DNA of 64,000 nucleotides, from the sequence record OP764672.1. One strand, given 5' to 3'. Source of the DNA: Klebsiella phage VB_KpP_HS106. The notes beneath the pieces were generated by a model. The model was given only the letters and a program-made list of their open reading frames with translations, was not told the origin of the DNA and searched no databases. Of the stretch, positions 1 through 53,600 are shown piece after piece. Made by a program: the position numbers and the translations under genes. Numbering within the stretch: the stretch's first letter is position 1; every line of letters begins with the position of its first letter.

Positions 1-353
1 CCTCCGTTTCAAAACTTGTGGCAAACTTACTCTCTGGCGTATGTCAGCCTAACTCTGTACTACTTCCTGTATACAGTAAGTTACTGATAAGCCAGTCCAG
101 ATTAATCTATATATCAATTCTGAATATGCTTATAACAAAATGATATAAGACAAACCACTTGACACAGTGTTACTATCTCACTCAATCCCTTAACACAATC
201 CCTCACTTAACCCACTCCAGTCATCACATAGCTATAGATCTATTCTATGTAGAATCACCAGTTATCTCCGTACATCCTACCGGTGTACTCCGATAACATT
301 CACTCAGTACCGTGACCAGTTAACTTATATAGGGAATGGAGAGAATTGAGTGT

Positions 354-461
354 CAAATTACTACTTTCAATCTAATTTACAATTACATCATAACTATCCC
401 TATACTCACCCTATATCTTATCATCCACCTACCTCATACCTAATCACACCTATACTCTACA
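354..461 (+). repeat. 108-nt completely G-free tract (CA/T-only) with repeated cctatactc / cctatatct units
   Basis: Direct reading: no G between 354 and 461. cctatactc occurs twice. Confidence 0.8.
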
Positions 462-497
462 GTTATAGGTACATATACCCACAATAACATTAGTGGT

Positions 498-514
498 ATT
501 ACCCACAGGGTAAT
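498..514 (+). promoter_or_regulatory. Hairpin attaccc-aca-gggtaat (7-bp stem, 3-nt loop): candidate vRNAP hairpin promoter ~40 nt upstream of the first early ORF
   Basis: Perfect inverted repeat. CCC-NNN-GGG loop closure is shared with the hairpins at 5061, 5188, 10184 and 10528. N4 vRNAP uses 3-nt-loop hairpin promoters. Confidence 0.35.
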
Positions 515-552
515 GTATAGAAGTGTTCACTTAACCTAATGGAGTATTAACT

Positions 553-933
553 ATGCATTGCTATCACTGTGGTAAAGAGATTGTACGTAATGAAGACGGT
601 ATCACTCTAGACAACCTGAATTGGTCACACCATGAATGTATGGTGAGTAATGCCGTCCGTAACATGGACGATGAAGAGTGGACAATGCCTAAACCACTCA
701 CTGTATTTGATGGTAAGCCAGTAGCTGGTACTACACCACATCAACTGTGGGAAGCTATTCAACATGGTGCGATTGTCTGCACCTCTATCAGTAAAAGTAT
801 TGCCATGCTGCGTCCTGCTGGCTCAGATGAAACTTGCTATGTGTTCTGGGATGAGTGTGAGCAAATGTCTATGCCTTATGCATCTCAGAGTGATGCAAGT
901 GAAGCATTCAGCTTCTACTGTGCCAACCTGTAA
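553..933 (+). CDS. Early hypothetical protein with N-terminal Cys/His zinc-ribbon-like motif (CYHCGK...HHEC)
   Basis: ORF with GGAG RBS 8 nt upstream. Motifs CxxC and HxxC. Confidence 0.5.
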   Translation: MHCYHCGKEIVRNEDGITLDNLNWSHHECMVSNAVRNMDDEEWTMPKPLTVFDGKPVAGTTPHQLWEAIQHGAIVCTSISKSIAMLRPAGSDETCYVFWDECEQMSMPYASQSDASEAFSFYCANL

Positions 934-939
934 TTAATA

Positions 940-958
940 AGCCCAGCTAGTCTGGGCT
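940..958 (+). terminator. Hairpin agcccag-ctagt-ctgggct (AGCCC/GGGCT family) without a T-run
   Basis: 7-bp perfect stem immediately after the stop at 933. Confidence 0.4.
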
Positions 959-1269: not shown

Positions 1270-1281
1270 CCCTATTTATTA

Positions 1282-2207: not shown

Positions 2208-2225
2208 AGCCCTCACTGGAGGGCT
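2208..2225 (+). terminator. Hairpin agccctc-actg-gagggct (AGCCC/GGGCT family)
   Basis: Perfect 7-bp stem after the stop at 2202. Confidence 0.4.
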
Positions 2226-2282
2226 TAGTTTATTAACGTGTTCTCCGAACACTCTTGTGAATCGGTCTACTGGAGACAGGGG

Positions 2283-3249: not shown

Positions 3250-3455
3250 ATGCTAAAGAAGCAGTATTGATGCTGAAATTAGGGGTTAAGCTAAAAAGAC
3301 CTTATTGGGAAGGTGAAACATATATAATCTTGGGGCCTAATGACACAATATGTCTAAAGTCCCCTGATGGGGATGTCACCAAAGATACAGTAGAAGGGTT
3401 TCTAACTCAAAAATGGACAGATTGGGAGGTATATTGTCCACAGGACAATAAATGA
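3246..3455 (+). CDS. Tandem paralog 6 (EAVLMLKLGVKL...WEVY)
   Basis: ATGA start/stop overlap with paralog 5. Shared motif. Confidence 0.55.
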   Translation: MNAKEAVLMLKLGVKLKRPYWEGETYIILGPNDTICLKSPDGDVTKDTVEGFLTQKWTDWEVYCPQDNK

Positions 3456-4801: not shown

Positions 4802-5058
4802 TCGATGTAAATATTACACTGGAACAATGCCAGCTGGCTTATGAAGGTGGTATGGATGAGTTAGCTCTGAAGCTATTCACCCGTGCTGTAAGCCATTTGT
4901 GTGCAAATGTGGATGAGACTGAAGCACTCAATGTAGTAGCTGAAATCCTCACTGAAGACTGTATTGATACTCTTCATGAATATCAGGCTCTCATTATCTC
5001 TGATCCGGCAGAACATGCTGCTTATGAAGATATCATCTCGTCCATCTTTCTTATTTAA
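4798..5058 (+). CDS. Acidic early hypothetical protein; its 3' end lies in copy 1 of the 127-bp duplication
   Basis: ORF with ATGA overlap to the upstream gene. Confidence 0.45.
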   Translation: MIDVNITLEQCQLAYEGGMDELALKLFTRAVSHLCANVDETEALNVVAEILTEDCIDTLHEYQALIISDPAEHAAYEDIISSIFLI

Positions 5059-5060
5059 GA

Positions 5061-5079
5061 CATTGCCCACAGGGCAATG
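5061..5079 (+). promoter_or_regulatory. Hairpin cattgccc-aca-gggcaatg (8-bp stem, 3-nt loop), copy 1: candidate vRNAP promoter
   Basis: Same cccacaggg core as the hairpin at 498-514. Confidence 0.35.
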
Positions 5080-5187
5080 AATGCAAAGGCAATCCTGCCT
5101 GTTCGAATATCAGGCTCTCATTATCTCTGATCCGGCAGAACATGCTGCTTATGAAGATATCATCTCGTCCATCTTTCTTATTTAAGA

Positions 5188-5206
5188 CATTGCCCACAGG
5201 GCAATG
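5188..5206 (+). promoter_or_regulatory. Hairpin cattgccc-aca-gggcaatg, copy 2, ~60 nt upstream of the codon-optimised gene at 5268
   Basis: Identical to copy 1. Confidence 0.35.
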
Positions 5207-5267
5207 AATGCAAAGGCAATCCTGCCTGTTCGTTCTTCATTTCATATTAACTATCGAGGTATTTATC

Positions 5268-5558
5268 ATGGCTTTTCAGAAAAACACTGCTGCAAGCAAC
5301 ACTTCCAATTCCTCTGCTAACAACGCTGCTGCTCCTGCCGAGCGTAACGTTGGTGGCTATCTGAACATCGGCGTCAAAGGCCGTGATGGTCAGGTTCGTC
5401 GTCTGGGCCAGGGTGGCCGTGGCATCGCTCTGCGTGAAGATCACCCGGTTGAAGGTGCAGTACTAACCTTCCTGCGTGAGCACGGCGTAGAAGCCCTCTC
5501 AGAGCGTCTGGTAATCACCTTTGGTGATGCTAAGGCACTGGAAAACTTCGAACTGTAA
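5268..5558 (+). CDS. Early protein (96 aa) with codon usage typical of highly expressed genes (CGT/CTG/GGC/AAC/GAA), Ala/Asn/Ser-rich N-terminus
   Basis: ATG with GAGGT RBS. The longer 5208 start lies inside the duplication. Codon bias is visibly different from neighbouring ORFs. Confidence 0.55.
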   Translation: MAFQKNTAASNTSNSSANNAAAPAERNVGGYLNIGVKGRDGQVRRLGQGGRGIALREDHPVEGAVLTFLREHGVEALSERLVITFGDAKALENFEL

Positions 5559-5565: not shown

Positions 5566-5584
5566 GCCCAGCCTTGTGCTGGGC
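5566..5584 (+). terminator. Hairpin gcccagc-cttgt-gctgggc followed by tattta
   Basis: Perfect 7-bp stem after the stop at 5558. Confidence 0.4.
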
Positions 5585-6253: not shown

Positions 6254-6528
6254 CTGCTGAACTTAAACCAGCAAAATTACATACTTACTGTAAGTTTTGC
6301 AAAGCTAATGGTGTTAAACGTGTAGCTAACTGGATGAGCAAATATGCTCCCAGAGGTGGCATGAGAGACACCTACAAGCATTATGCATGTACTGAACATA
6401 AACACCTCATTGAGGATACCGATCCTAACAGGACTCGTGTGGCTGAAAATGCTGAACTGGCTAAAGCCAGAAAAGAAGTGGATGACCACATGACAGAAGC
6501 TGACTATCAAACATGGGGAAGATTGTAA
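6250..6528 (+). CDS. Small Cys/His-rich (zinc-ribbon-like) protein
   Basis: CKFCK...YACTEHKH motifs. ATGA overlap upstream. Confidence 0.45.
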   Translation: MTAELKPAKLHTYCKFCKANGVKRVANWMSKYAPRGGMRDTYKHYACTEHKHLIEDTDPNRTRVAENAELAKARKEVDDHMTEADYQTWGRL

Positions 6529-7535
6529 TGCAACATAAATGGTTACCAGTTGAGGAACTTCAGGCCATCAACGAACGTCAGTTCAACAGGAAACATATTG
6601 ATGGTTATATCCGTAAAGAGCTGTTTGAAGACCCTGAATGTAACCTTTTAGATAAGGTAGAACAGGGTGTATCTCTGTTAAACCAGTGGCTCGAAGGTCA
6701 GTATTATGACTCTAAAGCTGTACGCCTTAACCACCTCAAATCCCTTGATCTGGAAGCCATTGTGAAAGAAGTGTTCGTGGGAATCATGTATTTCCCTGAA
6801 CCTACTCCAATGGTCAACGTAGTAGGCCAGCTGGCTTCCAGACTGGGTTTCGATGATAAACGTGACAGCATTCAGACTATGGCTGAAATAGTAGCTGTCC
6901 TCACGGATACTGACGTATATGACATTAACAAGCCTCATCCTAAAGCATCTCTGTATATCGTTAGCAATATTGGGTTGCCTGACCAGTTGGCTCAATTCAT
7001 TGAGCGTTCGTGTTATTTACCACCACTGGTTTGCCCACCCAAGAAGCTTACCCATAACATGGATACTCCTTACCTTACTTATTCATCTGATAGCCTTATT
7101 CTAGGGGGATCATTCAATCACCATAACGAGGATATCTGTCTGGATGTAATCAACAGCCGTAATGCTGTGCCTTACTCTCTGGACATAGAATTCCTCTGTA
7201 ACTATGAGGAAGAACCTACATTTGATCTCAATGAGATCGATGAAGAGAAGCTCCAGAAACACCGTAAGAAACCTCTCACACCGTGGGAGAAGGCTGATCT
7301 GGTACGTAAACAGAAAGACAACTGGATGCGTTATAAACGCCAGTCGTACTACTTCTATAGCCTGATGGCAAACCAGGGTAATGAGTTCTACTTTGGCAAC
7401 AAGGTAGACAAACGTGGACGTATCTATACCCAGGGTTATCACATCAACCTTCAAGGCACTCCCTTCAAGAAAGCCAGTTTAAACTTTGCCAATAAAGAGC
7501 AAGTAACTGGTGTGCCTGATGAATTTAAACTTTAA
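6528..7535 (+). CDS. N4 RNAPII-like small subunit: N-terminal half of a T7-like single-subunit RNA polymerase
   Basis: DKRGRIYTQGYHINLQGTPFKKASL matches T7 RNAP DWRGRVYAVSMFNPQGNDMTKGLL. The start is taken at the TAATG overlap with a GGGGAAG RBS. Confidence 0.8.
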   Translation: MQHKWLPVEELQAINERQFNRKHIDGYIRKELFEDPECNLLDKVEQGVSLLNQWLEGQYYDSKAVRLNHLKSLDLEAIVKEVFVGIMYFPEPTPMVNVVGQLASRLGFDDKRDSIQTMAEIVAVLTDTDVYDINKPHPKASLYIVSNIGLPDQLAQFIERSCYLPPLVCPPKKLTHNMDTPYLTYSSDSLILGGSFNHHNEDICLDVINSRNAVPYSLDIEFLCNYEEEPTFDLNEIDEEKLQKHRKKPLTPWEKADLVRKQKDNWMRYKRQSYYFYSLMANQGNEFYFGNKVDKRGRIYTQGYHINLQGTPFKKASLNFANKEQVTGVPDEFKL

Positions 7536-7552
7536 ATAGAGAGACTTAACTA

Positions 7553-8827
7553 ATGGTAATCAACACTGCTTATGGCCCAAACTTCAAATATATGTCTGGT
7601 TGGGAATATATGTGCATCGACGTAGCCAACTACTACGGACTGGACAAGAAACTGTTCGAAGAACGTATTCAGTGGGTGTACGACAACATCAAGGATCTGG
7701 AATCCAAAGTGCAGGATGCTGAAACCCCTGAGCTGTACCATAAAGCTGTCATGACTTTACGTCGTGTACAGCATGGGGAAGCTGTAGGCAATATCACCTA
7801 TTGGGATGGCTGCTGCTCTGGCATCCAGATTATGAGTGCCCTCACAGGCTGTGAGAAGGGTGCTTACAACACTGGTTGTATTGACCCAGAGAAACGTATG
7901 GATGCCTACAGCAACACCACAGACGCCATGAATGGCGTTCTGAAGCGTAAAGGTCTGGATAGTATCCAAGTACCTCGTAGCCATATCAAACAAGCTGTAA
8001 TGACCTCTGGTTACGGTTCTAAGGCTGTGCCTAAGAAGGTATTCGGTGAGGGCGAGATGCTGGACTACTTCTACGAAGCAGCCCACATCATCGCTCCTGG
8101 TGCGTTCAACCTCATGGATGAACTCCTGGGTTCCTGGCGTCCTTATGCTCTGGAACACGTTCTGGAGCTGCCTGATGGCTTCATTGCTAAGATGAAAGTC
8201 ATGGAAACTCTGGAAACCAGAATTGAAGTAGACGAGCTTGATCATGCTACTTTCACCATGGAATACAAAGAGAACCGGGGTACAGAGAAAGGCCGTGCTA
8301 ACGTAGCCAATACCATTCACTGCTGTGATGCCTACTTGCTGCGTGAACTGGAGCGTCTGTGCAACTATGATCCAGAGCTGGTAGCAGAGGCGCAGAAGAT
8401 GCTGGAAGCACGCCTACTGGCTCATAGCATGGGTATGCAGGCTGAAGAAGCTACTGATGATATGGTACGTCGTATCCGTCTGTGGGACGAGAATAAGCAG
8501 TCTTCTATGGTTATTCTCAACGATATCAACTGGAGCAACTACATGCAGTTACCTATCGACTTAGCTCGTGATGTAATGCGTAAAGTTAACTTCATGCTGA
8601 CTTACAAACCATTCCCTGTGGCTACTGTTCACGATGCCTTCGGATCCCACCCAAACAACTGTAACGAAGTACGGTACTGGTACAAAGAGATGCTGGCAGA
8701 ATTCGCTGATAGCACCATTCTACAATCTCTGATGAACCAGCTATATCAAACTACTGACGGTGTGTATACCAAGTTGTCTAACAACCTCGGAGATAAGATA
8801 CGTGGATCCAACTATGCTCTTTCATAG
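7553..8827 (+). CDS. N4 RNAPII-like large subunit: C-terminal catalytic half of a T7-like RNA polymerase
   Basis: DGCCSGIQIMSALTG matches T7 DGSCSGIQHFSAM (motif A). TVHDAFGSHP matches IHDSFGT (motif C). Confidence 0.85.
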   Translation: MVINTAYGPNFKYMSGWEYMCIDVANYYGLDKKLFEERIQWVYDNIKDLESKVQDAETPELYHKAVMTLRRVQHGEAVGNITYWDGCCSGIQIMSALTGCEKGAYNTGCIDPEKRMDAYSNTTDAMNGVLKRKGLDSIQVPRSHIKQAVMTSGYGSKAVPKKVFGEGEMLDYFYEAAHIIAPGAFNLMDELLGSWRPYALEHVLELPDGFIAKMKVMETLETRIEVDELDHATFTMEYKENRGTEKGRANVANTIHCCDAYLLRELERLCNYDPELVAEAQKMLEARLLAHSMGMQAEEATDDMVRRIRLWDENKQSSMVILNDINWSNYMQLPIDLARDVMRKVNFMLTYKPFPVATVHDAFGSHPNNCNEVRYWYKEMLAEFADSTILQSLMNQLYQTTDGVYTKLSNNLGDKIRGSNYALS

Positions 8828-9805: not shown

Positions 9806-10185
9806 AGTACATGGTGCCAAGAGGTACTGTTAAGAGAATCAAAACAGCTAATGCCATAGGCATACAAGAGCTGGAGCTGAAGCCAGTTACTGTCATTGCA
9901 GCAGTAGAAGGGCAATTTGAAGTCATACATAAAAATTCCATACCAGGAATTGAAATGGACTTAGAGTCTGCCCCACTAGGCTGGATCTACTGGAAACCAG
10001 GCAACGAGGAGCAACCTGTGTACAACTCTATGAAGATGTTAGAGGAAGTGCTTAGAAGACAGGAAATAAACAACCCTAAACAATTTATTAGTGATCGGTC
10101 TATTCGGGAGATTAAAAGTACATCTGACATAGCTGATGCTTTTAACTTCTTCAATAAAATATATAGCGATAATACTAAGCTTTGA
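9781..10185 (+). CDS. Protein with L7/L12-CTD-like segment (VKRIKTANAIGIQELELK)
   Basis: Family motif. Confidence 0.5.
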   Translation: MECNMDTIKYMVPRGTVKRIKTANAIGIQELELKPVTVIAAVEGQFEVIHKNSIPGIEMDLESAPLGWIYWKPGNEEQPVYNSMKMLEEVLRRQEINNPKQFISDRSIREIKSTSDIADAFNFFNKIYSDNTKL

Positions 10186-10200
10186 TGCCCTCCGGGCATC
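10184..10200 (+). promoter_or_regulatory. Hairpin gatgccc-tcc-gggcatc (7-bp stem, 3-nt loop TCC, i.e. GGA on the template strand)
   Basis: Perfect inverted repeat overlapping the stop at 10185. Its loop is identical to the GGA loop of the N4 P2 promoter, recalled from the literature. Confidence 0.3.
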
Positions 10201-10527: not shown

Positions 10528-10542
10528 GTGACCTCCGGTCAC
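10528..10542 (+). promoter_or_regulatory. Hairpin gtgacc-tcc-ggtcac (6-bp stem, 3-nt loop TCC)
   Basis: Perfect inverted repeat 7 nt after the stop. Same loop as the hairpin at 10184. Confidence 0.3.
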
Positions 10543-15139: not shown

Positions 15140-16321
15140 ATGTCACCACTTGAGAAGATCCTCGACAAAGCCTTTACTACTCTGGCTTTGGATGAGAAGT
15201 ATGTGTTCTGGGCTTCAATGATCCTCAGATTAAAACATAAGGAAGTGCCCGCTGGGCACCCTTGTGATTCTGCTTACACGGATTCTTTAACCGTGTATTA
15301 CAACCAGAAATTCATGGAGATGCTCAAACCTGCTGAACACCCTTTTGTGGTGGCTCACGAAGTTGGGCATATTGTGCATGAACACTGCACTACTTTCCCT
15401 GGCGATCTGGATGAAGATCTGTGGAACCAGGCTGGTGACTATGTAATCAACCTGGAACTGAAAAAGTCTGGAATGCCAATGCCTACAACTATTAAGGTAC
15501 TGGTAGACTCCCGCTTTGATGGCATGACCACCATGCAGGTATACCGAATTCTTCAACAGGAAGAGGCTAAGAATCCAGGCACTCACAAGGGTAAGAACCC
15601 TATGCCTGATTTCAATAAACAGCCTCTGACTCAAGAAGATCAGGAAAGCCAGAAACAGCAAATTGATAGCATCTTATTAGGTGCTAACATGGCAGCTGAA
15701 ATGGCTGAGGCAAACCAGACTGGTAAACAGTTTGGGCGTGGTACTAAGGATATGGCTCGCCGTATTGAGGATCTCCTGAATCCCCCAATTCCATGGCAGC
15801 ACTATCTGAAGATCTTCTGTGAGAAGGTCACACGTAAGCCTGGTCGTACCTGGTCACGTCTTCGTCGTCGTATGCTGGTACACGATATCACTGCTCCAGA
15901 ACGCCGTGGTAAGTCCCTGGGACGTATTTCATGGGCTATTGACGTATCTGGTTCCATTGGAAAGAAAGAGTTCACCATCTTCTTAGGTGGTGTCTATCAG
16001 GTACTGAAACTGTTTAAACCCGACGAAATAAAGCTGTATCAGTTTGATACTGATATCAAGGATATCTCCCGGATCTGTACAGTGCGTGATCTGCTCAATG
16101 TTAAATTCAGTGGTGGTGGTGGTACTTGTATCGACAGTACTATTGAAGACTTCGCCCGTGATAAAGCATCACTGGGGATGTTCATCCTGACTGATGGTTA
16201 CCTCAGCCAGCACAATCTGGTAGATCCTAAACGTCCTGTAATCTGGTTCGTTTATGATAACCCCAACTTTGTACCAAAATTTGGCAAAGTGGTTCACTTT
16301 ACAATGGAAGGGCTTGTATAG
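15140..16321 (+). CDS. von Willebrand factor A domain protein with N-terminal HExxH metallopeptidase-like motif
   Basis: MIDAS motif AIDVSGSIG. HEVGHIVHEH motif. Confidence 0.65.
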   Translation: MSPLEKILDKAFTTLALDEKYVFWASMILRLKHKEVPAGHPCDSAYTDSLTVYYNQKFMEMLKPAEHPFVVAHEVGHIVHEHCTTFPGDLDEDLWNQAGDYVINLELKKSGMPMPTTIKVLVDSRFDGMTTMQVYRILQQEEAKNPGTHKGKNPMPDFNKQPLTQEDQESQKQQIDSILLGANMAAEMAEANQTGKQFGRGTKDMARRIEDLLNPPIPWQHYLKIFCEKVTRKPGRTWSRLRRRMLVHDITAPERRGKSLGRISWAIDVSGSIGKKEFTIFLGGVYQVLKLFKPDEIKLYQFDTDIKDISRICTVRDLLNVKFSGGGGTCIDSTIEDFARDKASLGMFILTDGYLSQHNLVDPKRPVIWFVYDNPNFVPKFGKVVHFTMEGLV

Positions 16322-19188: not shown

Positions 19189-21666
19189 ATGCAAGTTGCG
19201 GATATGCAAAACAAATCGACCTCTGCCTCTCTGGGTGCTGGGGAAACTCTCGCTGTATCCATGGTAGAGGATGCTGCATTTCTGATGATGCTGTCATCTA
19301 ACCTGTATTCAAACCAGCTTCTGGCAGCTATTCGTGAGCCGCTGTGCAACGCATGGGATGCTAACATCGAAGCTGGTACTACCGATCAACCCCTGAAGAT
19401 CTCCATCACTAATGATGGTGAACTGATCATTCAGGATAGTGGTCTGGGTATCCCCCCAGAGAAGATCGCCCAAATCTATGGCACTTATGGTGCTTCCACC
19501 AAGCGTAACGATAGCAAGACTACTGGTGGCTTTGGTCTGGGCAGTAAAGCTCCATGGGCACTTGTGGATGCCTTCCGTGTAACCTCTGAATACAACGGAA
19601 CCAAGACAGTCTATAACATGGCTCGTTCAGTAGTGGAGAACCAAGGCAAACCAGGTATTACACCTATGGTTAGCGTTCCTACTACTCGTTCTGGTTTAAC
19701 TGTCAGCTTCCGTTTAACCCTAGATCAAGCTCAGACAGCTCATACCTATCTGAAGTATCTGGTTATGCATGGTGAAATGAATGCAGAGCTCAGTTGGATG
19801 GGTGGCGAATTTGAGCCTCTGGATAAACTGGGGATGTCCCATGAACCGGGTTCTTGGAATATAGATGATGATGTTTGGTACAACAAGTACATGGGTAACC
19901 ACAGAATCTTTGTGCGCTATGGTGCTGTTATCTACCCAATGCTGTTTACAGAAGCTACCAGCAAAGCTACTGGGATGCTCTCAGAGTTTATGGAAATCGT
20001 TGGTATTCAACGTCTACTGGTTCAAGCAGCTCCTGATACTCTGGCGTTAACACCAGCTCGTGAAGCACTCTCCAGCCAGAAACTAACTGAAGATGGCTTG
20101 ACTGATCTATGTGTTCAGCTAGTTGCAAACATGGAAAAGGATATCATTGCCAAGATTCCATCTTCTATTGCTGCTACTTGCAATCGTATGCGTGAAGGTA
20201 AATTTTCTAATGGGCAACCTGCTATTGGCAGTCCTGCCAATATTATGGAGGAAATCCAACCTACTGTAGTCAAACGTTATCTGGGTAGCAATCTGGGGTC
20301 TTCTATTCGTAGGAAGTACTGGAAAGAACTCAAAGAAGCCGAACATGTTGGCTTTAAAAAGTTATACCAGTTTACTAAACCAGACTGGGTACATGCTAAT
20401 CAGGCTCTGTGGGACTTACGCAAAGCTACCACATATGGCAATCTCAGAACCCGTGAAGCTATCTATGCATTCCTTCGCAAACATACCATCAAACGTATTA
20501 TGCGAGGTATTGCTGGAGCTGATTTTATTTCGGTTAAGAGCTTACGTTTCAGTACCCAGGAAAATACCTGGTGGGGCCGTAATGTCTATAGCGATGGCTT
20601 TATGCGTCGTATCCCATTCTCTGGAACTCAGATCGTAACTTACCTTGAAAACCAGGTGGTGTTTCTCACTTCCCGTTTGAAAGGTATTGCTGCGAGTAAG
20701 TCTGCCTACGACGGATACGTGCAAGGGACTTCCAACGCTGCATGGGCACTGAAAGTGGATCCACGAGCTAAAGCTGCTGATATTGCTGTTGTCACTGCAA
20801 AGCTGGAAAAGCTTGGGTTTACTGTAGTGGATCTAACCCCAGGAGTAGAGTGGGATCCAGCCTATCGGGAAATTCTCGAAGCAAAGGAAAAGCGTGAGAA
20901 GAAAGCCAAGATTAAAGCTGAAAAACCAGGCAATAATCTGGGAACTGTCTCTGCTTATCTGAAGAATGGTAACTGGAAACTTAAAGGTGAAATTACTGCC
21001 TGTAAAGATCCAAGTCAGGTAAACCAGAATCCTAAGTATTTTATCTCTATTGATGATATTCATAGGGGTATGCTGGGAAGCTTTATTCATCTGAAGGATG
21101 CTACTCCAGAAGACTTGTTTGATGGGGTAGTTGTTCGCAATGGTATTGAACGTCGTATGGCTGAAAATCGTGGTGCTATTGACGTGGATGCTTACTTTAT
21201 ACCGCGTGTTAAGCAAGTGGTACTAAGCAAAGCATTTGCAAAGTATGTCACCAAAGAACGCCAGAAAGCCTTGGCTACTCAGCATCGTATCTCATCTCAG
21301 GATATCAAGCTGTGTACTAAACTCGGCATTAAACTGCCTGGTTTGGAGAAGCTACGGTACGATCCTTACTTTGAGCGTATTCTCAGCCTTACTCCATCTA
21401 CAGTAGCTGTTTATGCTTATACTCCAGAAGAGTATGAGAAGTTCAATGCAGATGAAAATTGGGATCCTATCCAAACCATCATGCGGGGTAGGCTGGAAGA
21501 GTTACCCTTTATCAAGAAATTGAAAGTGCTGCGTAGAGACGCTATGTTACGTGCCCTTGGGCATGGTGATGGTAGTGTCCTTCAGTGGCTCATTCAATAC
21601 CCAGAGCGGGCTTCTGCTCTGAAAACCATCGTTTTAAGTGCACTCAAAAACGGAACTAAATCATGA
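19189..21666 (+). CDS. rIIA: rIIA-like protein with N-terminal GHKL ATPase domain
   Basis: GHKL N-box EPLCNAWDA, G1 box DSGLGI, G2 box GGFGLGSKA. rIIA/rIIB homologs are known in N4. Confidence 0.6.
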   Translation: MQVADMQNKSTSASLGAGETLAVSMVEDAAFLMMLSSNLYSNQLLAAIREPLCNAWDANIEAGTTDQPLKISITNDGELIIQDSGLGIPPEKIAQIYGTYGASTKRNDSKTTGGFGLGSKAPWALVDAFRVTSEYNGTKTVYNMARSVVENQGKPGITPMVSVPTTRSGLTVSFRLTLDQAQTAHTYLKYLVMHGEMNAELSWMGGEFEPLDKLGMSHEPGSWNIDDDVWYNKYMGNHRIFVRYGAVIYPMLFTEATSKATGMLSEFMEIVGIQRLLVQAAPDTLALTPAREALSSQKLTEDGLTDLCVQLVANMEKDIIAKIPSSIAATCNRMREGKFSNGQPAIGSPANIMEEIQPTVVKRYLGSNLGSSIRRKYWKELKEAEHVGFKKLYQFTKPDWVHANQALWDLRKATTYGNLRTREAIYAFLRKHTIKRIMRGIAGADFISVKSLRFSTQENTWWGRNVYSDGFMRRIPFSGTQIVTYLENQVVFLTSRLKGIAASKSAYDGYVQGTSNAAWALKVDPRAKAADIAVVTAKLEKLGFTVVDLTPGVEWDPAYREILEAKEKREKKAKIKAEKPGNNLGTVSAYLKNGNWKLKGEITACKDPSQVNQNPKYFISIDDIHRGMLGSFIHLKDATPEDLFDGVVVRNGIERRMAENRGAIDVDAYFIPRVKQVVLSKAFAKYVTKERQKALATQHRISSQDIKLCTKLGIKLPGLEKLRYDPYFERILSLTPSTVAVYAYTPEEYEKFNADENWDPIQTIMRGRLEELPFIKKLKVLRRDAMLRALGHGDGSVLQWLIQYPERASALKTIVLSALKNGTKS

Positions 21667-40171: not shown

Positions 40172-40228
40172 GTGTTTTGTGGGGTGCCCTTCCGGGCACT
40201 CTATGAATTCTTTGCAAAGGAAATCCAA

Positions 40229-43828: not shown

Positions 43829-43897
43829 TTGTGTGTTGGGGAACTTCCGTTCCCTTTGTGGGTTTGCCCCTTCGGGGGCATTTCAAAAGAGGTAATT

Positions 43898-47683: not shown

Positions 47684-50600
47684 TTAGTTTGCCATTCTGA
47701 ACAAGTTCCAAGGCATTGGGATAGTCAAGATGCTGCTACCCTGCAATACAGAAGTTGAGAATGGGTTACCCAAGTTACGTGCAAACAAGGGTTCCATAGC
47801 ATCAGGTGCTGCTGAGAACTGCCCTGTGATAGCCATGTGTGCCATAACAGAGGCCGGGCGTTTGTCCATCAGGTAGAACATTGCACGTTGGATACGAATA
47901 CGATACTTCGTAAACATTGTGATCCCCATATCATCCAGATACTGGCGAGTAGCTGTAGCTGGAATGTCATAGTTAACAAAAGCATCAGAGGCACGTTGTA
48001 AAGCTTCAGTATGACTCAGACGATCTCTGGCATGTTCTGTCAGGTGTTTATACAGAGCATACTTAGCAGCAAAGTCACTGAACTGTGCAGCATCACTCAA
48101 GAATTTGTGAGGTGCAGTACCCTTGTCAATTACAGCCCAGCGAGCAGCTGTTACAGCAGAAGCTGGAAGGTGAGCAGATACCTCATTAAATTTCTTACGG
48201 ATCTTAGAACCATAAGTGTAACCATCAGCATCAGGCTGAACGTCTTCTACGATGGTAGGCATCATGCCTGCCTGAATAAACTTAGCCAGTGGGTTAGCAT
48301 TCAAGCGATCCTGAGTCTCATTGATCAGGGATTCCATCTGAGCAAAGTTACCAATACCAGCACGTTGCTGTTGCTGATACTTAAGTAGCAGTGAATACTG
48401 TTTACGGTAATCAATACCAGCAACGAGAGCAGTACGGATATCTTTAACCATGCGTACAGGGTTAACACCATAAGCAGCCAGCAAAGCAGTGTTGGACATA
48501 ATGTTACTGAACTGGGTTTTCAGATTACGAATAACGATCACGTCCTTATAGGTCTGCATAAATTCCTGAATACCACGCTCACCTTTAATTACGTAGGCTT
48601 TAGCCTTATCACCAAAAGCAGCTTCAAGTAAACCAGCAGCGACACCCTGAGCAATATTACGTTGCTCTGGATCTGCATCCAGGATATTAGCCAGAGAGTA
48701 CTTACGGAAGCCAAAGGTCAGGTTAACCAGATCATTACGAATGTACATACGATCACTACCCCACAGAGAGGCAGCTTTAATACGTGCTTCGTAGGGCATC
48801 ATTGCCCAGATCTCACGACCACGTTCAGAAGGTGCATCAGGCCCAATCTCAAAGTAAGCATTAGGATTCTTCAGGATATTAGCTGTAGAGTCTTCATGCA
48901 GAGCTTCCAGGATCTTAGCATTCTGGCTTGGAGCATCACCTTTATCGATATTCTGACCAGCTAAACGACCTACAAGATCAGCAAAGTCATTATTACGATC
49001 AAGGAAAGTATCACGAGTATTATGGGTAGCCATATAACGGAAGTCCATGATATGACCATCAGTGCTTAACACAGGCACTACATAGTTATCCTGAACTTGA
49101 GAAGGATCGAAGGCAGTGTGGGACAGTGCTTCACGTCCTCGCACGTCTGCGTAGGACGCTTGCCTTAACTGTTCTAACTCGTCAGCTCGAACACGATCAG
49201 CAACAGCACGATCCCCACTTAGGGAAGAACCTTTACGCTGGCTTCCAGTTAAGCTGAAAGTACCAGAGACGGTTCGTTGATACCCATTCTCTTTGGTCAC
49301 ATACAGCACACGTCCAGAGTGTTTTGACAAAGAGTCCTGGGACAGTGGGGATACTTTTTGATATCCCATGTTCACCAGTGCTGCTTCATCTGCACTCCCC
49401 GACTCAACCGCACGTAAGTCATGGTGAGGATTGGTATCTTCAGGCAGATAGCCTTTAATGCGAGACAACTGGTTACCAGCAAACAGCGTATTAGCAGAAT
49501 CCTCGATCAGGTTCGCATAAGTAGCCATCAGCATTTTAATGCCATTGTCTTTACCTCGTGCAAGCTCACGTTCCATTACAGCAGCAGTGCGAACACGGTT
49601 TTCAGTCTTGGTGTAGCTTAGAGCGTACATCGAAGCCAGAGCATCAATGGCGTTCACTTCATCAAGAGTCGGTTCGATACCTACTGTGGAATAGTGAGTA
49701 GCAGCTCCGGTAGCAATAGCTTTTGCATTCAGAACTAAATCACGTCCCAGGGTATTTCTGCCAGTAGCCATCCAGAATCCCAGAGCCTTGGCACGAATGA
49801 TCTTATCATTACCGTTAGCATACTGGCTAATGGTTTTCTCAAGCTTATTGATCTGTTGCTTACGGTAACCAGTATTAGAAACCAGTTTATGTAAGTTATT
49901 CAGGTTCATACCTTCAATGTGCAGCACAGACTGAAGATCAGTACGAAGCAGTGAATAAGTCATTGCTGTACGATCTTCTTTATTCAGGTCTTGCCCATTG
50001 TTATCAAACATCTCATTTAAGTTCTTAGCAGTAACAGCAGCTAAGGTTGCACGATCCTGTTCAATACGTTTAGTAGAACGTAACAGGGATTCATGCAGAG
50101 CACGAACATCATCAGCATTTGTTGCTTCAGTCAGAATGGAAGCCAGAGAACCTTCTGGAGTATTAGGGGCATTAAAGTCCCGGAACTCTTTGATAGTTTC
50201 TTTCAGGTTACCTAACTGATCACGAGCAGCCAAACCTGCAACTTTGCCCATAGCATTAAGAGCATTGTTGGAGGACTGATCAATACCAGTAGCTTTAACG
50301 ATTTTACCCAGGAACTGTTTAGACTTAGCAGCAGCCGTATCTAAGGCATTCTCTACTTTGTCGATCCCACCAGTAAGAATATTCATGGTGGTATCACGGT
50401 TCTTAAGTTCAATCTGGATCAGCTTTTCAGCTAGTGCTTGGGCACGAGCATTTGCAGCTTGCCCTTGATGGGTATTGGTCAACATACCAGAGACTGTATT
50501 AACAGCCTGGTTAAAGTAAGCAGTAGCTTGTTCAAAGGCAGTATTGCCAGAGTCCTTACCATCTTCCATCTGGAAGCCAAGTAAGTTACTGGTGTCTTCA

Positions 50601-53600
50601 TGCCCAATAGCCATAGCAACAAAACGAGACAGATGCTGGGACTCACCAGAGTCATTCGTTACATCAAACAGATAATTCCATTTCTGTTGAGCAGCTCGTT
50701 TTTCTGCTTGAGTTGCCTGATTCCAGTTTCCATTGTGGAAGTCTTCTGGTTTCAGGGATTGTTTGGCAGCTTGCCAGGTACGACGAATCTCACGGTTAAC
50801 TGGTGAAGTGAAACCAGAAGCCAGAGATTCAGATACAGCAGTCTCAATGGCCTCCACAGCAAAGGCTTCCTGATTAGTCAGTACAAACCCATTGCTCAGT
50901 GCTTCGGTGCTGACAGGGGCTTTCCCAGTGGCTACAGCCTCATTCCATACTTGACCAGGAGTGTAATTCTCATTGGCATTCTGGGTGACTCTTGAGCCTA
51001 AAGCACCGTAAAGCTGATCCGCTACAGTGGATATTACATTACGGAGGTTACCTGTGAATTGTGCTGAGTTAGTCTTGCCACCTGTTGAAGCCAGGTTATC
51101 AAAGATATCCACATGGCTGAACTTAGCTACCTGATCAGCAGCACTGTTAGTGTTACTCATAGGATGGCTAATGGAAGACACAGGACTTTGAATAGCAGCA
51201 GGGTTAATTGCTTGAACCAGATGTGCAGTATCGAAGGTCAGTGCTTCCAGTGCAGTAGTAACCCGAGCATTAACAGCTCGACCAGTTACAGCAGCAAAGA
51301 TGCCTGACATTTGATCCACAAACTGTTTAAAAGCAGTACCTAACCACCCACGGTTACGACCTGAAATTTCAGGTACACCAGTGATGGTATCAAGGTAACG
51401 TTGGAATTCCGGGTTAGTCATACCCCAGGAAATAAACTCATCCACGTTAGCCAAAGCAGGGGCAAACTGCTGAGTCAATTGAGGATCAGCTGAAACCAGC
51501 TTAGTCACTCTACCCATTAGCTTCTCTGTACGAGCCAGTACAGCTTTTACTTTTGGATTTGAATCAGCAGTAGCAATTGCACGTCCCAGAGCAATGTGAG
51601 TCATCTCATGCAGCAAGACTTCAGGTGAAGCCTCTTTGCTGAGTGACAGGTTAACCTGTGCAGTGTTCTTATCTTGATAAGACCATGCAATGGCATCACG
51701 GTTCTGGGGCAGTGACTGCCCCTTAACATTCTTAGGCATAGTCTGCCCATCCAGTACGTTCACCACAGCATCAGCTGGAATCAAACCAGAAATGAGGTTG
51801 TGGAGTTCGTTATACACTGGGTTAGCAAACTTACCTTTGGTACGAGCCATCACCTCAGAAGCTGACACAGAGCCTGTAGAGGCCGAAGCCTCATACAGGT
51901 ATTGTCTCATCTTGTCAGGATACTGGCTGGCTTCAGCCTTTGGGGCATTGCCCTTAGAGAACATGTCAGAGATACGTTGTAAGCCAGTAGCACGGCTACG
52001 TTTCAGACGTGCAATCTCGTCACCAATCTTCTTACGATCAGCATCAGTGATCAGATACTCGCCACCCTCAGTGCCATACTGGTTAACAGCATAGACTTCA
52101 GAGAGAGTTTCCAGTTTCTTAATATCACGATCATAAGCCTGGTTAAGGATTGTGTTCAGAGCAGCTTTCATGTTGCCCTTGAACTCTTTACCCAGAATCT
52201 TAGTCTTCATGGCATCCAGAGCTTTCTTAGCTGCAACCTTGTCATTGGTAGACAGGTTAGCATCAGCCAGACTACGAACTTCAGTCAGCAGTGCAGCAGC
52301 AGCCAGATGTTGAGGATGGTAAGAAACCACAGCATCAAACATAGCTTTGTTCTGGATACGAGCACCTTTCAACACATTGTCAGGAGACAGGATGTTAGCA
52401 TCATGCACATTCTGGCTTTCGATCTTGCTGATCACATCAGAGCTAATTGCAGCATCAGTACCCTGAGTAACGTTAGCACCCATAGCAACACCAGGATTGG
52501 TCAGCTTAGTCTCAGTCACAGTAGACTGGGTAGATTTATACCCACCTACCAGACCTTGACTCAGCAGCATCCCATTAGCATCCATTGCTGGTTTAGGGTT
52601 AGCAGCTTCTTTGAAGTAGATATCAATGCTGGTGGCAGGGGATTTAGCAGTAAAGGCTTTCTCCACCTTAGCCATTGGGTAACCAGAAGCTTTGGTATTC
52701 TCGGACAAGACACCAGTTGCAGATGGCATATTAGGAATCATGTTAGACAGTGTATCCAGATCTACCTGAGTGAGTCCTTCTAGTGGGGCACCCTTAGCAT
52801 CCACAGGGATTTTACCCTCAGCAATACGTTTCTTCAGCAGTGCAGCTTTAGCAGCATTGTAACGAAGGTTAGCCAGAGTAAAGGTAGTGTTAACCAGACT
52901 GGTATTAGCATCACGAGATGCAATGAAGTCAGCAGCAACCTCATTAACAGCAGTCTCTGTAGCAGATCCGCGAGTCTGAGAATCCACATCAATGATGCGT
53001 TTAGTTTGAGCTGGATTAAGGCTGAACTTAACCAGACCATCAGCAGTACGTGGTAGGTTCACTTTCTGGCCCAAAAGTACAGAAAGGTTTTTACTTACCT
53101 CAGCATAAGCCTTGGCAAAGTCTGCTTTGTTATTGCTTTTAGCCAGTGGGATCAGGGAACCGATCTTAGAGTAAACATCCTCTACAGTAGCTCGACCCAT
53201 AGCAGCTTTCAGTGCTGGAATACCAGCAGAGTAGTTGAATGGGGTAGCCAGAGTCTTGGCCTTAGAACGAGCACCATAACCAGTAGAGAAGTATTCTAGC
53301 GCCTGGATCTGACCTTGCTGACTGGCAGGTGCATTGGTTTTGTAATCAGCCCAATGCTGTCGCATAGCATCACCCAGCAGCTCGTAGTAATCCTGACCAC
53401 CCAACTCACGATAAGTAGGCATGTTGGTAATGTTGTCACCTTCACGGTAAATACCACCACGCTTCAGCAGATCGAAGTCAGCAGAGCCATTTAGGATATT
53501 GGTAAGGATAGGGCCGTTAGTAACACCATCTGACTCCATTTGAGCCAGTAGCTTAACGGAGGACTTACCAGACTCCAGAGCAGTAGCATACTGAGCCAGG

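What the first reader, a model, noticed from the sequence alone, without database searches (positions are those of the whole stretch)
498..514. Family of 3-nt-loop hairpins with CCC-NNN-GGG closure: candidate vRNAP promoters
Hairpins occur at 498-514 (attaccc-aca-gggtaat), 5061-5079 and 5188-5206 (cattgccc-aca-gggcaatg), 10184-10200 (gatgccc-tcc-gggcatc) and 10528-10542 (gtgacc-tcc-ggtcac). All have 6-8-bp stems and a 3-nt loop closed by CCC/GGG. On the template strand the loops read TGT or GGA, with a central purine. From memory, this fits the rule for N4 vRNAP hairpin promoters (5-7-bp stem, 3-nt loop, central purine, GGA in P2). The first three sit upstream of early genes. The last two follow stop codons, so they could instead be RNA-processing or termination signals.
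Basis: partly seen in the sequence, partly recalled or inferred. Interest (0 to 1): 0.65.

Follow-up and report, generated by a model that had tools for sequence, protein, structure and literature searches.

The report
Two classes of phage hairpin promoters
The small DNA hairpins in the early region of this N4-like Klebsiella phage are very probably the single-stranded hairpin promoters used by the phage's own RNA polymerases; they form two distinct classes, both matching promoters already mapped by experiment in the related phage LUZ7, so this is a well-supported but expected feature.

Summary
All five reported hairpins exist at the stated coordinates and are far more frequent than chance (5 CCC/GGG-closed hairpins against 0.11 expected). 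The window is an N4-like Klebsiella phage (Schitoviridae, Efbeekayvirus).

Class A has an ACA loop and a 7-8 bp stem: 498-514, 3432-3450 (new), 5061-5079 and 5188-5206. It has T at +12 and G at +13/+14 from the loop centre. It matches the strong early vRNAP promoters of phage LUZ7 (TSS 12-13 nt after the loop centre), including a tandem pair upstream of a Drc-family gene.

Class B has a TCC loop and a 6-7 bp stem: 2238-2252 (new), 10184-10200 and 10528-10542. It has G at +14. It matches LUZ7 PE7/PE8 almost base for base, and a model built from class B recovers LUZ7's mapped middle promoters. Four B-like variants lie at 15245, 20223, 40184 and 43839, all on the + strand.

The promoter reading is supported. 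CCC/GGG closure is not the defining feature, start sites are predicted 13-14 nt (not 10-12) after the loop, and class B may be read by RNAPII+Drc rather than vRNAP. This is a new member of a known kind.

The parts
498..514 (+). Class A hairpin promoter (ATTACCC-ACA-GGGTAAT). Predicted start at G520 (+14; T518 at +12). Precedes the ORF starting at 553.
   Evidence: Model R1 scores it 31.4 bits. Identical in P184, FBKp27, BM327 and Halo_KS_7. Orthologous to the annotated CB1_promoter_1, with which it shares the downstream sequence cacttaaccta.
3432..3450 (+). Predicted start at G3454 (+13). Precedes the ORF starting at 3522.
   Evidence: R1 scores it 34.8 bits. The hairpin is invariant in relatives while the flanks vary.
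5061..5079 (+). Class A hairpin promoter, first copy (CATTGCCC-ACA-GGGCAATG). Predicted start at G5083 (+13).
   Evidence: R1 scores it 34.2 bits. Template-strand DNA hairpin energy is -8.2 kcal/mol, z = -4.4.
5188..5206 (+). Class A hairpin promoter, second copy. Predicted start at G5210. It lies 71 nt (loop centre to ATG) upstream of the Drc-family gene.
   Evidence: This tandem arrangement upstream of Drc parallels LUZ7 PE4/PE5.
4978..5232 (.). Perfect 127-bp tandem duplication (2.0 copies) that doubles the Drc promoter.
   Evidence: 100% match. The hairpin is single-copy in L001 and L003-L006.
5268..5558 (+). Drc-family gene (96 aa), a homologue of the LUZ7 ssDNA-binding cofactor of RNAPII.
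   Evidence: Matches phrog_6271 at 1e-12 over its full length. The same family holds LUZ7 Drc (5e-37) and CB1_20 (1e-39). It is 42% identical to CB1_20. The YLN motif aligns with Drc Y23.
5566..5584 (+). Terminator-like hairpin directly after the Drc-family gene. Analogous to LUZ7 terminator T7 after orf14.
   Evidence: LUZ7 T7 has 95% termination efficiency.
2208..2225 (+). Terminator-like hairpin immediately upstream of the class B site at 2238.
   Evidence: Annotated as a terminator in FBKp27.
2238..2252 (+). Predicted start at G2259 (+14). The next ATG is at 2283.
   Evidence: Model R2 scores it 37.8 bits. Near-identical to LUZ7 PE7/PE8 (GCGTTC-TCC-GAACGC; mapped TSS at +14). The Halo_KS_7 orthologue has three compensatory stem changes.
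10184..10200 (+). Class B hairpin promoter (GATGCCC-TCC-GGGCATC). Predicted start at G10206 (+14). The next ATG is at 10237.
   Evidence: R2 scores it 33.7 bits. Not terminator-like. DNA hairpin energy is -7.1 kcal/mol, z = -5.6.
10528..10542 (+). Class B hairpin promoter (GTGACC-TCC-GGTCAC). Predicted start at G10549 (+14).
   Evidence: R2 scores it 35.8 bits. Conserved in FBKp27, P184, BM327 and Halo_KS_7.
15245..15259 (+). Possible class B variant (GTGCCC-GCT-GGGCAC, followed by CCTTGTGA), inside ORF 15140-16321.
   Evidence: R2 scores it 18.2 bits. It has the same stem as the 40184 hairpin. Also flagged as terminator-like. Weak evidence.
20223..20242 (+). Possible class B variant with a GTCC tetraloop (TATTGGCA-GTCC-TGCCAATA), inside ORF 19189-21666.
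   Evidence: The loop matches LUZ7 PM1 (gtgcgc-GTCC-gcgcac). Weak evidence.
40184..40199 (+). Class-B-like hairpin in the middle region (GTGCCC-TTCC-GGGCAC). It lies 13 nt after the stop of the ribonucleotide reductase ORF and 30 nt before the ATG at 40229 (gp41-like gene).
   Evidence: R2 scores it 21.5 bits. The orthologous CB1 site, ATGCCC-TTCC-GGGCAT, lies upstream of CB1_65, with the outer stem pair changed on both sides.
43839..43854 (+). Class-B-like hairpin in the middle region (GGGAAC-TTCC-GTTCCC) at the junction between the gp43-like and gp44-like genes.
   Evidence: R2 scores it 14.9 bits. The flanking genes are 52% and 61% identical to LUZ7 gp43-like and gp44-like. This is the junction that holds LUZ7 PM3/T41.
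6513..8827 (+). The two RNAPII subunit genes (6513-7535 and 7553-8827). They lie downstream of all class A sites.
   Evidence: Pfam RNA_pol match at 1e-18. tblastn hits to N4-like RNAP2 proteins. Relatives carry RNA polymerase annotations.
47684..58369 (-). Giant virion RNA polymerase gene (3561 aa), the presumed reader of class A.
   Evidence: Catalytic motifs (DGVTNGP and the second catalytic Asp) align with N4 gp50 and LUZ7 vRNAP.

Best explanation
The hairpins are promoters of the N4 type. Under negative supercoiling the short inverted repeat extrudes as a cruciform. The hairpin on the template strand is bound by a phage-encoded single-subunit-type RNA polymerase. Transcription then starts at a fixed distance downstream, at a G.

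There are two classes.

Class A has coding-strand loop ACA (template TGT) and a 7-8 bp stem, with start sites predicted at G520, G3454, G5083 and G5210. I take these to be the immediate-early promoters read by the injected virion RNA polymerase. They drive the first early gene and the Drc-family cofactor gene and, by read-through, the RNAPII genes.

Class B has coding-strand loop TCC (template GGA) and a 6-7 bp stem, with start sites predicted at G2259, G10206 and G10549. These are a second kind of hairpin promoter that heads the units at the early-to-middle boundary. TTCC- and GTCC-loop relatives lie further into the middle region. I think class B is most likely read by RNAPII with Drc (about 0.5). 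The alternative is weak recognition by vRNAP (about 0.4).

Shown here: the hairpins, their enrichment, their conservation and covariation, and their homology to mapped LUZ7 promoters. Inferred: extrusion, which polymerase reads which class, and the exact start sites.
For: 1. Enrichment and placement. Both classes are strongly enriched. The seven core sites lie in the first 10.6 kb, and all eleven sites, including the four class-B-like variants further along, read in the direction of early and middle transcription. TCC-containing loops on stems >=6 bp occur 6 times on the + strand and once on the - strand.

2. Experimental reference. LUZ7 ONT-cappable-seq (Table S2 of bioRxiv 10.1101/2022.03.18.484859) maps 5' ends at G residues 12-13 nt after the loop centre of short-stem TTC/TAC hairpins (PE1, PE3, PE4, PE5). 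It maps 5' ends 14 nt after GCGTTC-TCC-GAACGC hairpins (PE7, PE8). Window class A has T at +12 in all four sites and G at +13 (+14 at the 498 site). Window class B has G at +14 in 3 of 3. Across window, CB1 and MIF8, T+12 is 11/11 and G+13 is 9/11 for class A. Across those three phages plus LUZ7 PE7/PE8, G+14 is 8/10 for class B. These downstream bases were not used to select the sites.

3. Positional orthology. The duplicated class A site precedes a Drc-family gene followed by a strong terminator. In LUZ7 the strongest tandem early pair PE4/PE5 precedes Drc, which is followed by T7. Two class B sites lie just after the RNAPII genes, like PE7/PE8. The 43839 hairpin lies at the gp43|gp44 junction, like PM3.

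4. Covariation at an orthologous site. Window GTGTTC-TCC-GAACAC corresponds to Halo_KS_7 ATGCAC-TCC-GTGCAT. That is three double changes, with the loop and the next 17 nt identical. The Drc-upstream orthologues differ in stem sequence but all pair: CATTGCCC (window), GACGGCC (CB1) and GAATGGCC (MIF8).

5. Model validation. Model R2 was trained only on early-region TCC sites. Its top three hits in 50 kb of LUZ7 are the three mapped middle-promoter hairpins in that range, PM3, PM1 and PM2.

6. CB1 authors independently annotated three hairpins as N4-like early promoters. All three are class A type.

7. The sites are not terminator-like, and sigma-70-like sites are depleted in 1-16000 (17 found against 38 +/- 6.5 expected).

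8. Template-strand hairpin energies (-4.2 to -8.2 kcal/mol) match those of N4 P1-P3 (-3.7 to -7.2).
Against: - There are no transcript data for this phage or its genus.
- N4's specific determinants are not all met. -8G is absent in both classes. The start G is not at +11. Class A lacks -10G and the G..A loop ends that N4 needs for extrusion.
- No class A or B hairpin was found upstream of the first gene in P184 (positions 1-1126) or upstream of the window start in four other relatives. An N4-like promoter at the extreme left end is therefore not demonstrated, although CB1 has one at position 89.
- LUZ7 authors classed PE7/PE8 as early, which argues against RNAPII for class B.
- In LUZ7 the PM3 hairpin coincides with terminator T41 (3' end at 39374, TSS at 39375), so this hairpin type can also mark 3' ends.
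- In CB1 the orthologue of the 40184 hairpin ends only 9 nt before the ATG. A start at +14 would leave almost no leader.
- The stem-pairing statistics are partly circular, because the sites were found by a hairpin scan.
Confidence: 0.8

Rival explanations
1. All seven hairpins, both classes, are read by the virion RNA polymerase. Class B would simply be a weaker or later-entering set of vRNAP promoters.
For: - LUZ7 PE7/PE8 are class B type and were detected in the early sample and labelled early.
- The class B core C-TCC-G (template C-GGA-G) is identical to N4 P2 and P3, which are proven vRNAP promoters.
- In LUZ7 both classes have G-N-A template loops, compatible with one reader.
- Middle timing of similar hairpins could reflect late entry of distal DNA (inference from the N4 injection model, PMC4496689).
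Against: - The two classes differ consistently in loop, minimum stem length and distance to the start G, across three genera.
- The class A loop changes with the clade (ACA, ATA, TAC/TTC) while the class B loop is invariant. That is easier to explain with two readers evolving at different rates.
- The class B motif is the one found at all four LUZ7 middle TSS.
- PE7/PE8 are 40-230 times weaker than PE1 at 5 min, compatible with the onset of middle transcription.
Confidence: 0.4
2. The TCC-loop hairpins (class B) act at the RNA level or as transcription stops. They would be weak terminators, processing sites or 3'-end stabilisers of the upstream message, not promoters.
For: - 10184 and 10528 directly follow stop codons.
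- A pyrimidine-rich stretch follows the stem.
- LUZ7 T41 (3' end 39374, 61% efficiency, predicted intrinsic terminator) is the same hairpin as PM3.
- The CB1 orthologue of the 40184 hairpin sits too close to the ATG for a normal leader.
Against: - None of the three core sites passes a terminator scan.
- No 3' end is listed at the LUZ7 PE7/PE8 hairpins, whereas cap-enriched 5' ends are mapped 14 nt after them.
- G at +14 and A at +15 are conserved beyond the hairpin.
- At 2238 a conventional terminator hairpin already sits 13 nt upstream.
- All three sites lie 38-52 nt upstream of an ATG.
Confidence: 0.12
3. The class A elements are 17-19 bp palindromic operators bound as duplex DNA by a dimeric phage or host regulator, not extruded hairpins.
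For: Within this genome the three class A palindromes share much sequence (ATTRYCC-ACA-GGRYAAT), as operators do. They overlap the regions just upstream of genes.
Against: - In CB1 and MIF8 the same class keeps the loop, the pairing and the T+12/G+13 signal, but the stems are unrelated in sequence (TTGGCC, ATAGTGC, CGCGC, GACGGCC, CGTGC).
- The conserved downstream bases are asymmetric and always on the gene side.
- The LUZ7 counterparts are mapped start sites.
Confidence: 0.04

Closest known systems
Coliphage N4 virion-RNA-polymerase early promoters P1, P2 and P3
   Same: Both are short perfect inverted repeats with a 3-nt loop, a C:G closing pair and a central purine on the template strand. 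Both lie in the left part of the genome, oriented with the early genes. Hairpin energies are similar. The class B loop (coding TCC, template GGA) is identical to that of P2 and P3.
   Different: - N4 starts 11 nt after the loop centre. Here the conserved G is at +13 (class A) or +14 (class B).
- N4 requires template -8G. Here that position is C or T.
- The class A loop is T-G-T on the template strand, so it lacks -10G and the G..A loop ends that N4 needs for extrusion.
- N4 has a single class and three sites.
- The vRNAP here shares only about 24% identity with N4 around the catalytic motif. [quoted passage not shown]
Pseudomonas phage LUZ7 hairpin promoters mapped by ONT-cappable-seq (early PE1-PE9, middle PM1-PM4; Putzeys et al. 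2022)
   Same: - Both have a two-type layout.
- The strong early hairpins start at a G about 13 nt after the loop centre, and a tandem pair sits upstream of Drc.
- Hairpins with stems >=6 bp and TCC (or 4-nt) loops start 14-16 nt downstream. They sit after the RNAPII genes and at the gp43|gp44 junction.
- Window 2238-2252 differs from the PE7/PE8 hairpin at only two stem pairs.
   Different: - The class A loop is ACA here, against TAC/TTC in LUZ7.
- Class A stems are 7-8 bp here, against 4-5 bp in LUZ7.
- One class B site (2238) lies inside the early region here.
- The tandem Drc promoter arises here from a recent 127-bp duplication, not from two diverged hairpins 33 nt apart.
- Nothing has been mapped experimentally in this phage.
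Predicted hairpin promoters of Pectobacterium phage CB1 (Cbunavirus; Buttimer et al. 2018; annotated CB1_promoter_1 to 3)
   Same: CB1 has the same class A architecture (C:G-closed 3-nt loop with a central purine on the template strand, T+12, G+13). The positions are orthologous: upstream of the second gene, with a shared leader sequence, and upstream of the Drc-family gene CB1_20.
   Different: The loop is ATA instead of ACA, and the stems are unrelated in sequence. The CB1 record does not annotate the class A sites at 89 and 6388, or the class B sites at 2942 and 10971.

Membership tests
N4 vRNAP early promoter (P1-P3 type) | Template-strand DNA hairpin with a 5-7 bp stem and a 3-nt loop | tested here: met
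   Perfect stems of 7-8 bp (class A) and 6-7 bp (class B) with 3-nt loops. They fold as the minimum-energy structure of the template strand. The 8-bp stems slightly exceed the N4 range.
N4 vRNAP early promoter (P1-P3 type) | Purine (A/G) at the centre of the loop (-11) on the template strand | tested here: met
   Template loops are TGT (class A) and GGA (class B), so the centre is G in both (rule from PMC4496689).
N4 vRNAP early promoter (P1-P3 type) | G:C loop-closing pair plus 5'G and 3'A of the loop (needed for extrusion), and -10G contact | tested here: inconclusive
   Class B (C-GGA-G) meets all of these. Class A (C-TGT-G) has the closing pair but neither the 5'G/3'A loop ends nor -10G.
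N4 vRNAP early promoter (P1-P3 type) | -8G in the template-strand stem | tested here: not met
   The coding strand has G or A at this position, so the template strand has C or T, in all seven sites. N4 has G.
N4 vRNAP early promoter (P1-P3 type) | Start at template C (a G in the RNA) 11 nt downstream of the loop centre | tested here: not met
   The coding strand has T or A at +11. The conserved G is at +13/+14. N4 P1-P3 have GG at +11/+12.
N4 vRNAP early promoter (P1-P3 type) | Dependence on gyrase supercoiling and host SSB, and binding by vRNAP | not testable with these tools
   Biochemical property. The vRNAP gene is present (47684-58369), but its hairpin-reading residues could not be aligned with N4.
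LUZ7-type early hairpin promoters (PE1, PE3, PE4, PE5) | Stem >=4 bp, 3-nt loop, and a G start 13-14 nt downstream of the hairpin centre | tested here: met
   Class A has G at +13 in three of the four sites and at +14 at the 498 site, with T at +12 in all four.
LUZ7-type early hairpin promoters (PE1, PE3, PE4, PE5) | Tandem strong promoters upstream of the Drc gene, followed by an efficient terminator | tested here: met
   5061/5188 hairpins, then the Drc-family gene 5268-5558 (phrog_6271), then the terminator-like hairpin 5566-5584. Compare LUZ7 PE4/PE5, orf14 and T7.
LUZ7 TCC-loop hairpin promoters (PE7, PE8, PM1-PM4) | Stem >=6 bp, 3-4-nt loop containing TCC, and a G start 14-16 nt downstream | tested here: met
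   Class B has 6-7 bp stems, a TCC loop and G at +14 in 3 of 3 sites. The 40184 and 43839 hairpins have TTCC loops. Model R2 recovers PM3, PM1 and PM2 as its top three hits.
LUZ7 TCC-loop hairpin promoters (PE7, PE8, PM1-PM4) | Primary 5'-triphosphate transcript ends at the predicted positions in this phage | not testable with these tools
   No transcriptome data are available for this phage or its genus. Literature searches found none.
Rho-independent (intrinsic) terminator | GC-rich hairpin followed directly by a run of T | tested here: not met
   None of the seven core sites is reported by the terminator scan, while conventional terminators nearby are reported (2208-2225, 5566-5584, 9303-9326, 10877-10898). 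Only the weak variant at 15245 is flagged.

The most novel reading that the evidence does not exclude
The two hairpin classes are two separate promoter codes read by two different phage polymerases.

Class A would be a clade-specific vRNAP code. Its loop co-evolves with the fast-evolving vRNAP: ACA in Klebsiella Efbeekayvirus, ATA in Erwinia phage MIF8 and in Cbunavirus, TAC/TTC in Luzseptimavirus. It works without the G-N-A mini-hairpin that N4 needs for extrusion.

Class B would be the long-sought middle promoter of RNAPII+Drc. It is a TCC/TTCC-loop hairpin conserved across at least three genera and identical in its core to the vRNAP promoters of N4 itself. That would mean the same hairpin signal is used by different polymerases in different branches of the Schitoviridae.
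Probability: 0.4. Interest if true: 0.6.

Novelty: new member of a known kind. Interest (0 to 1): 0.4.

Why it matters
Hairpin promoters are the hallmark of N4-like phages, but they have been mapped experimentally only in N4 and LUZ7. Genome records of Klebsiella N4-like phages, which are candidates for phage therapy, annotate only generic sigma-70-type promoters.

This analysis gives the likely early transcription map of the genus: seven core promoters with nucleotide-level start predictions, four candidate sites in the middle region, and their transcription units.

It also shows that a two-class hairpin layout is shared by Efbeekayvirus, Cbunavirus and Luzseptimavirus. That turns the open question of what RNAPII+Drc recognises at middle promoters into a simple experiment. 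The recent tandem duplication of the Drc promoter is a small natural example of promoter amplification at the most highly expressed early gene.

Tried and rejected
1. Class B as ordinary terminators. Rejected for the core sites, because the terminator scan does not report them and LUZ7 has no 3' ends at PE7/PE8.

2. My own intermediate idea that LUZ7's TCC hairpins at 8245 and 9529 were its published middle promoters. This was wrong. Table S2 lists them as early PE7 and PE8. The middle promoters nevertheless carry the same loop.

3. Transferring N4's hairpin-reading residues (K114, R119, W129, D901, R904) to this vRNAP. Direct BLAST aligns only the motif A region at 24% identity. A three-way alignment through LUZ7 aligns the catalytic aspartates and perhaps R119, but it puts W129 and D901/R904 in gaps. 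This is too unreliable to assign a polymerase.

4. A hairpin promoter at the extreme left end. None was found in P184 1-1126 or upstream of the window start in the other relatives. The physical end of these records is unknown.

5. Known RNA families or tRNAs in 1-16000. None found.

6. A solved structure for the Drc-like protein by sequence search. No hit.

7. FBKp27's annotated promoters. These are generic predictions that do not coincide with the hairpins.

8. Primary N4 promoter papers (PMC317147, PMC1855362, PMC2639713). Not held. The 2015 review was used instead.

9. Class B in CB1's middle region. Only one weak hit, at the gp41-like gene, and none at the gp43|gp44 junction.
Full report
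**Identity of the window.** The first 12 kb match Klebsiella N4-like phages of the genus Efbeekayvirus (P184, FBKp27, pKP-BM327, Halo_KS_7) at 86-93% identity. The window carries the two RNAPII subunit genes (6513-7535 and 7553-8827) and a 3561-aa virion RNA polymerase gene on the minus strand (47684-58369). By RNAPII sequence the phage is closest to Erwinia phage MIF8 and Pectobacterium phage CB1 (about 61%), then to the Pseudomonas LIT1 and LUZ7 groups (40-43%), and it is far from N4 itself (about 30%). LUZ7 is therefore a better experimental reference than N4.

**The observation.** A scan for perfect hairpins with a 3-nt loop found 40 with stems of 6 bp or more, against 18.9 +/- 4.4 in dinucleotide-preserving shuffles. 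It found 5 closed by CCC/GGG against 0.11 expected. No shuffle reached any observed count.

**Two classes, not one family.** Aligned on the loop centre, the sites split cleanly.

| | Class A | Class B |
|---|---|---|
| Loop centres | 506, 3441, 5070, 5197 | 2245, 10192, 10535 |
| Loop (coding strand) | ACA | TCC |
| Stem | 7-8 bp | 6-7 bp |
| Downstream signal | T at +12, G at +13 (+14 at the 506 site) | pyrimidine tract, then G at +12 and +14, A at +15 |

CCC/GGG closure is not the common denominator. Relatives close these hairpins with GC/GC, TC/GA or CT/AG.

Covariance models built for each class (R1 and R2) and run without filters over all 64 kb gave the following.
- R1 found only the four class A sites (31-35 bits; the next hit scored 13 bits).
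- R2 found the three class B sites (34-38 bits) and then weaker + strand hits at 40177-40216 (21.5 bits), 15238-15276 (18.2 bits) and 43832-43871 (14.9 bits).

The 40184 and 43839 hairpins have 6-bp stems and TTCC loops, and they lie in intergenic gaps of the middle region. TCC-containing loops on stems of 6 bp or more occur six times on the + strand and once on the - strand.

**Comparison with relatives.** Each close relative has the same three class A and three class B sites in the early region (Halo_KS_7 has two class B), always on the transcribed strand. The hairpins are invariant while their flanks vary.

One orthologous site gives unbiased covariation. The window has GTGTTC-TCC-GAACAC where Halo_KS_7 has ATGCAC-TCC-GTGCAT. 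That is three double substitutions, with the loop and the next 17 nt unchanged.

The more distant CB1 and MIF8 have the same two-class layout.
- Class A there has an ATA loop: CB1 at 89, 869, 1784, 6388 and 6752; MIF8 at four sites.
- Class B there has a TCC loop: CB1 at 2942 and 10971; MIF8 at three sites, one with a hairpin identical to window 2238-2252.

Across the window, CB1 and MIF8, class A stem positions 1-5 pair in 11 of 11 sites, with up to four pair types per position. Across those three phages plus LUZ7 PE7/PE8, class B stem positions 1-6 pair in 10 of 10 sites, and pairing collapses at position 7. Because I selected the sites by a hairpin scan, this pairing is partly circular. The conserved loop, the conserved T+12/G+13 or G+14/A+15, the orientation and the positional orthology are independent of that selection.

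**Experimental anchor.** ONT-cappable-seq of LUZ7 (Putzeys et al. 2022, PMC9163698; Table S2 of the bioRxiv version) maps primary 5' ends as follows.

| LUZ7 promoter | Hairpin | TSS offset from loop centre | Notes |
|---|---|---|---|
| PE1, PE3, PE4, PE5 | short stem, TTC or TAC loop | G at +12/+13 | very strong early; PE4/PE5 form a tandem pair 33 nt apart upstream of Drc (gp14) |
| PE7, PE8 | GCGTTC-TCC-GAACGC | G at +14 | just after the RNAPII genes; labelled early, but 40-230 times weaker than PE1 |
| PM1-PM4 (middle) | stem >=6 bp, loop TCC or GTCC | +15 to +16 (PM2-PM4) | middle-stage TSS |

The window matches this picture point by point.
- The class A start geometry equals that of PE1, PE3 and PE5.
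- The duplicated class A site precedes a 96-aa gene of the Drc family. It matches phrog_6271, which also holds LUZ7 Drc and CB1_20. It is 42% identical to CB1_20, and its YLN motif aligns with Drc Y23. A strong terminator-like hairpin follows it, as T7 follows Drc in LUZ7.
- Class B differs from the PE7/PE8 hairpin at two stem pairs and has its G at +14.
- Two class B sites sit just after the RNAPII genes.
- The 43839 hairpin occupies the gp43-like | gp44-like junction (52% and 61% protein identity), which holds PM3 in LUZ7.

As a blind check, R2 contained no PM sequence. Its three best hits in the other 50 kb of LUZ7 were PM3, PM1 and PM2.

The CB1 authors had already annotated three hairpins as N4-like early promoters (PMC6027278). 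All three are class A.

**Mechanism.** The best-supported model is the N4 one (PMC4496689). Negative supercoiling extrudes the inverted repeat. The template-strand hairpin is recognised by a phage polymerase. Synthesis then starts at a fixed distance, set by the enzyme, at a G. Three results fit this model.
- Template-strand hairpin energies (-4.2 to -8.2 kcal/mol) equal those of N4 P1-P3.
- Sigma-70-like promoters are depleted in the region, and the hairpins are not terminator-like.
- The layout is repeatedly terminator, then hairpin, then gene 38-81 nt downstream.

I assign class A to vRNAP for three reasons. It holds the positions of LUZ7's strongest immediate-early promoters. It lies upstream of the RNAPII genes. 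In CB1 it includes a site at nucleotide 89, inside the terminal repeat, where N4 has P1.

For class B the polymerase is open.
- For RNAPII+Drc: the motif is that of all four LUZ7 middle promoters, class B has its own stem length and start distance, and its loop is invariant across genera while the class A loop changes with the clade.
- For vRNAP: PE7/PE8 were detected early, and the class B core equals N4 P2/P3.

**Tests against N4's own rule.** The hairpin, the central purine and the closing pair are met. The G..A loop ends and -10G are met only by class B. -8G and the start at +11 are met by neither class. So these sites work like N4 promoters but are not members of the N4 P1-P3 sequence family. 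They belong with the LUZ7 and CB1 type. An attempt to read the vRNAP's specificity residues failed because of sequence divergence.

**Caveats.**
- There are no transcript data for this genus.
- In LUZ7 the PM3 hairpin is also terminator T41, with the 3' end one nucleotide before the TSS. Class B hairpins may therefore both stop and start transcripts, or some "starts" may be processing products.
- The CB1 orthologue of the 40184 hairpin (ATGCCC-TTCC-GGGCAT, upstream of the gp41-like gene) ends 9 nt before the ATG, which fits a promoter poorly.
- The variants at 15245 and 20223 are intragenic and weak.
- No hairpin promoter was found at the far left end of the relatives' records.

**Verdict.** The promoter interpretation is supported in substance and corrected in detail: two classes, different spacing, and an uncertain polymerase for class B. 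This is a new member of a known kind of element. Its main added value is that the two-class layout is conserved across three genera, which gives a directly testable hypothesis for the middle promoters of Drc-type schitoviruses.

Noticed in passing
window 4978-5232: A perfect 127-bp tandem duplication (2.0 copies, 100% identical). It repeats the 3' end of ORF 4798-5058 together with the class A hairpin, producing two promoters 127 nt apart upstream of the Drc-family gene. Five close relatives have a single copy. It could be a recent adaptive promoter amplification or an assembly artefact.
   Followed up: partly
window 527-552 and 960-984: Two early genes (ATG at 553 and 985) share a nearly identical leader and ribosome-binding cassette: TAACCTAATGGAGTATTAACTATG and TAACCTATTGGAGTACTAACTATG. 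The same cacttaacctattg motif follows CB1_promoter_1, and a related copy lies at 203-221.
   Followed up: partly
window 5087-5100, 5214-5227 and 10548-10563: Small stem-loops lie right at or just after the predicted transcript starts: AGGCA-ATCC-TGCCT after the Drc promoter, and TGAGTC-GCTC-GACTCA at the 10549 start. The 12-mer GGCAATCCTGCC is shared with the region downstream of the CB1 hairpin at position 89. These are possibly 5'-terminal stabilising hairpins of early transcripts.
   Followed up: no
window 10560-11070: A gene-poor 0.5-kb stretch follows the class B site at 10528. It holds a terminator-like hairpin at 10599-10615, a 50-aa hydrophobic ORF (10699-10851) with a strong GGAGGA ribosome-binding site, and a terminator at 10877-10898. 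Bases 10711-10764 are 93% identical to otherwise unrelated 60-kb Klebsiella phages. There are no Rfam or tRNA matches.
   Followed up: partly
window 1-16000: Sigma-70-like promoter matches are depleted (17 found against 38.3 +/- 6.5 in shuffles). Terminator-like hairpins are enriched (24 against 9.8 +/- 2.7).
   Followed up: no
L008 (CB1) 89, 6388, 2942, 10971; L013 22423-22438: The CB1 record annotates three hairpin promoters. It also has unannotated class A hairpins at 89 (in the terminal repeat, upstream of gene 1) and at 6388, class B hairpins at 2942 and 10971, and a TTCC hairpin upstream of the gp41-like gene.
   Followed up: partly
LUZ7 record 39347-39385 (L012 25347-25385): In the published LUZ7 tables, terminator T41 (3' end at 39374) and middle promoter PM3 (TSS at 39375) are adjacent nucleotides at one TCC-loop hairpin. 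Either the hairpin terminates and initiates, or the 5' end is a processing product.
   Followed up: no
window 1-497: About 500 nt upstream of the first hairpin promoter contain no ORF of 50 aa or more on either strand. The region is rich in short direct repeats of TCACT(T/C)AA and CCTATA-like motifs. It possibly belongs to the terminal or packaging region.
   Followed up: no
window 19189-21666 and 38441-40171: The middle region encodes a GHKL-type ATPase-domain protein (HATPase_c, 825 aa) and a class I-like ribonucleotide reductase large subunit (576 aa).
   Followed up: no
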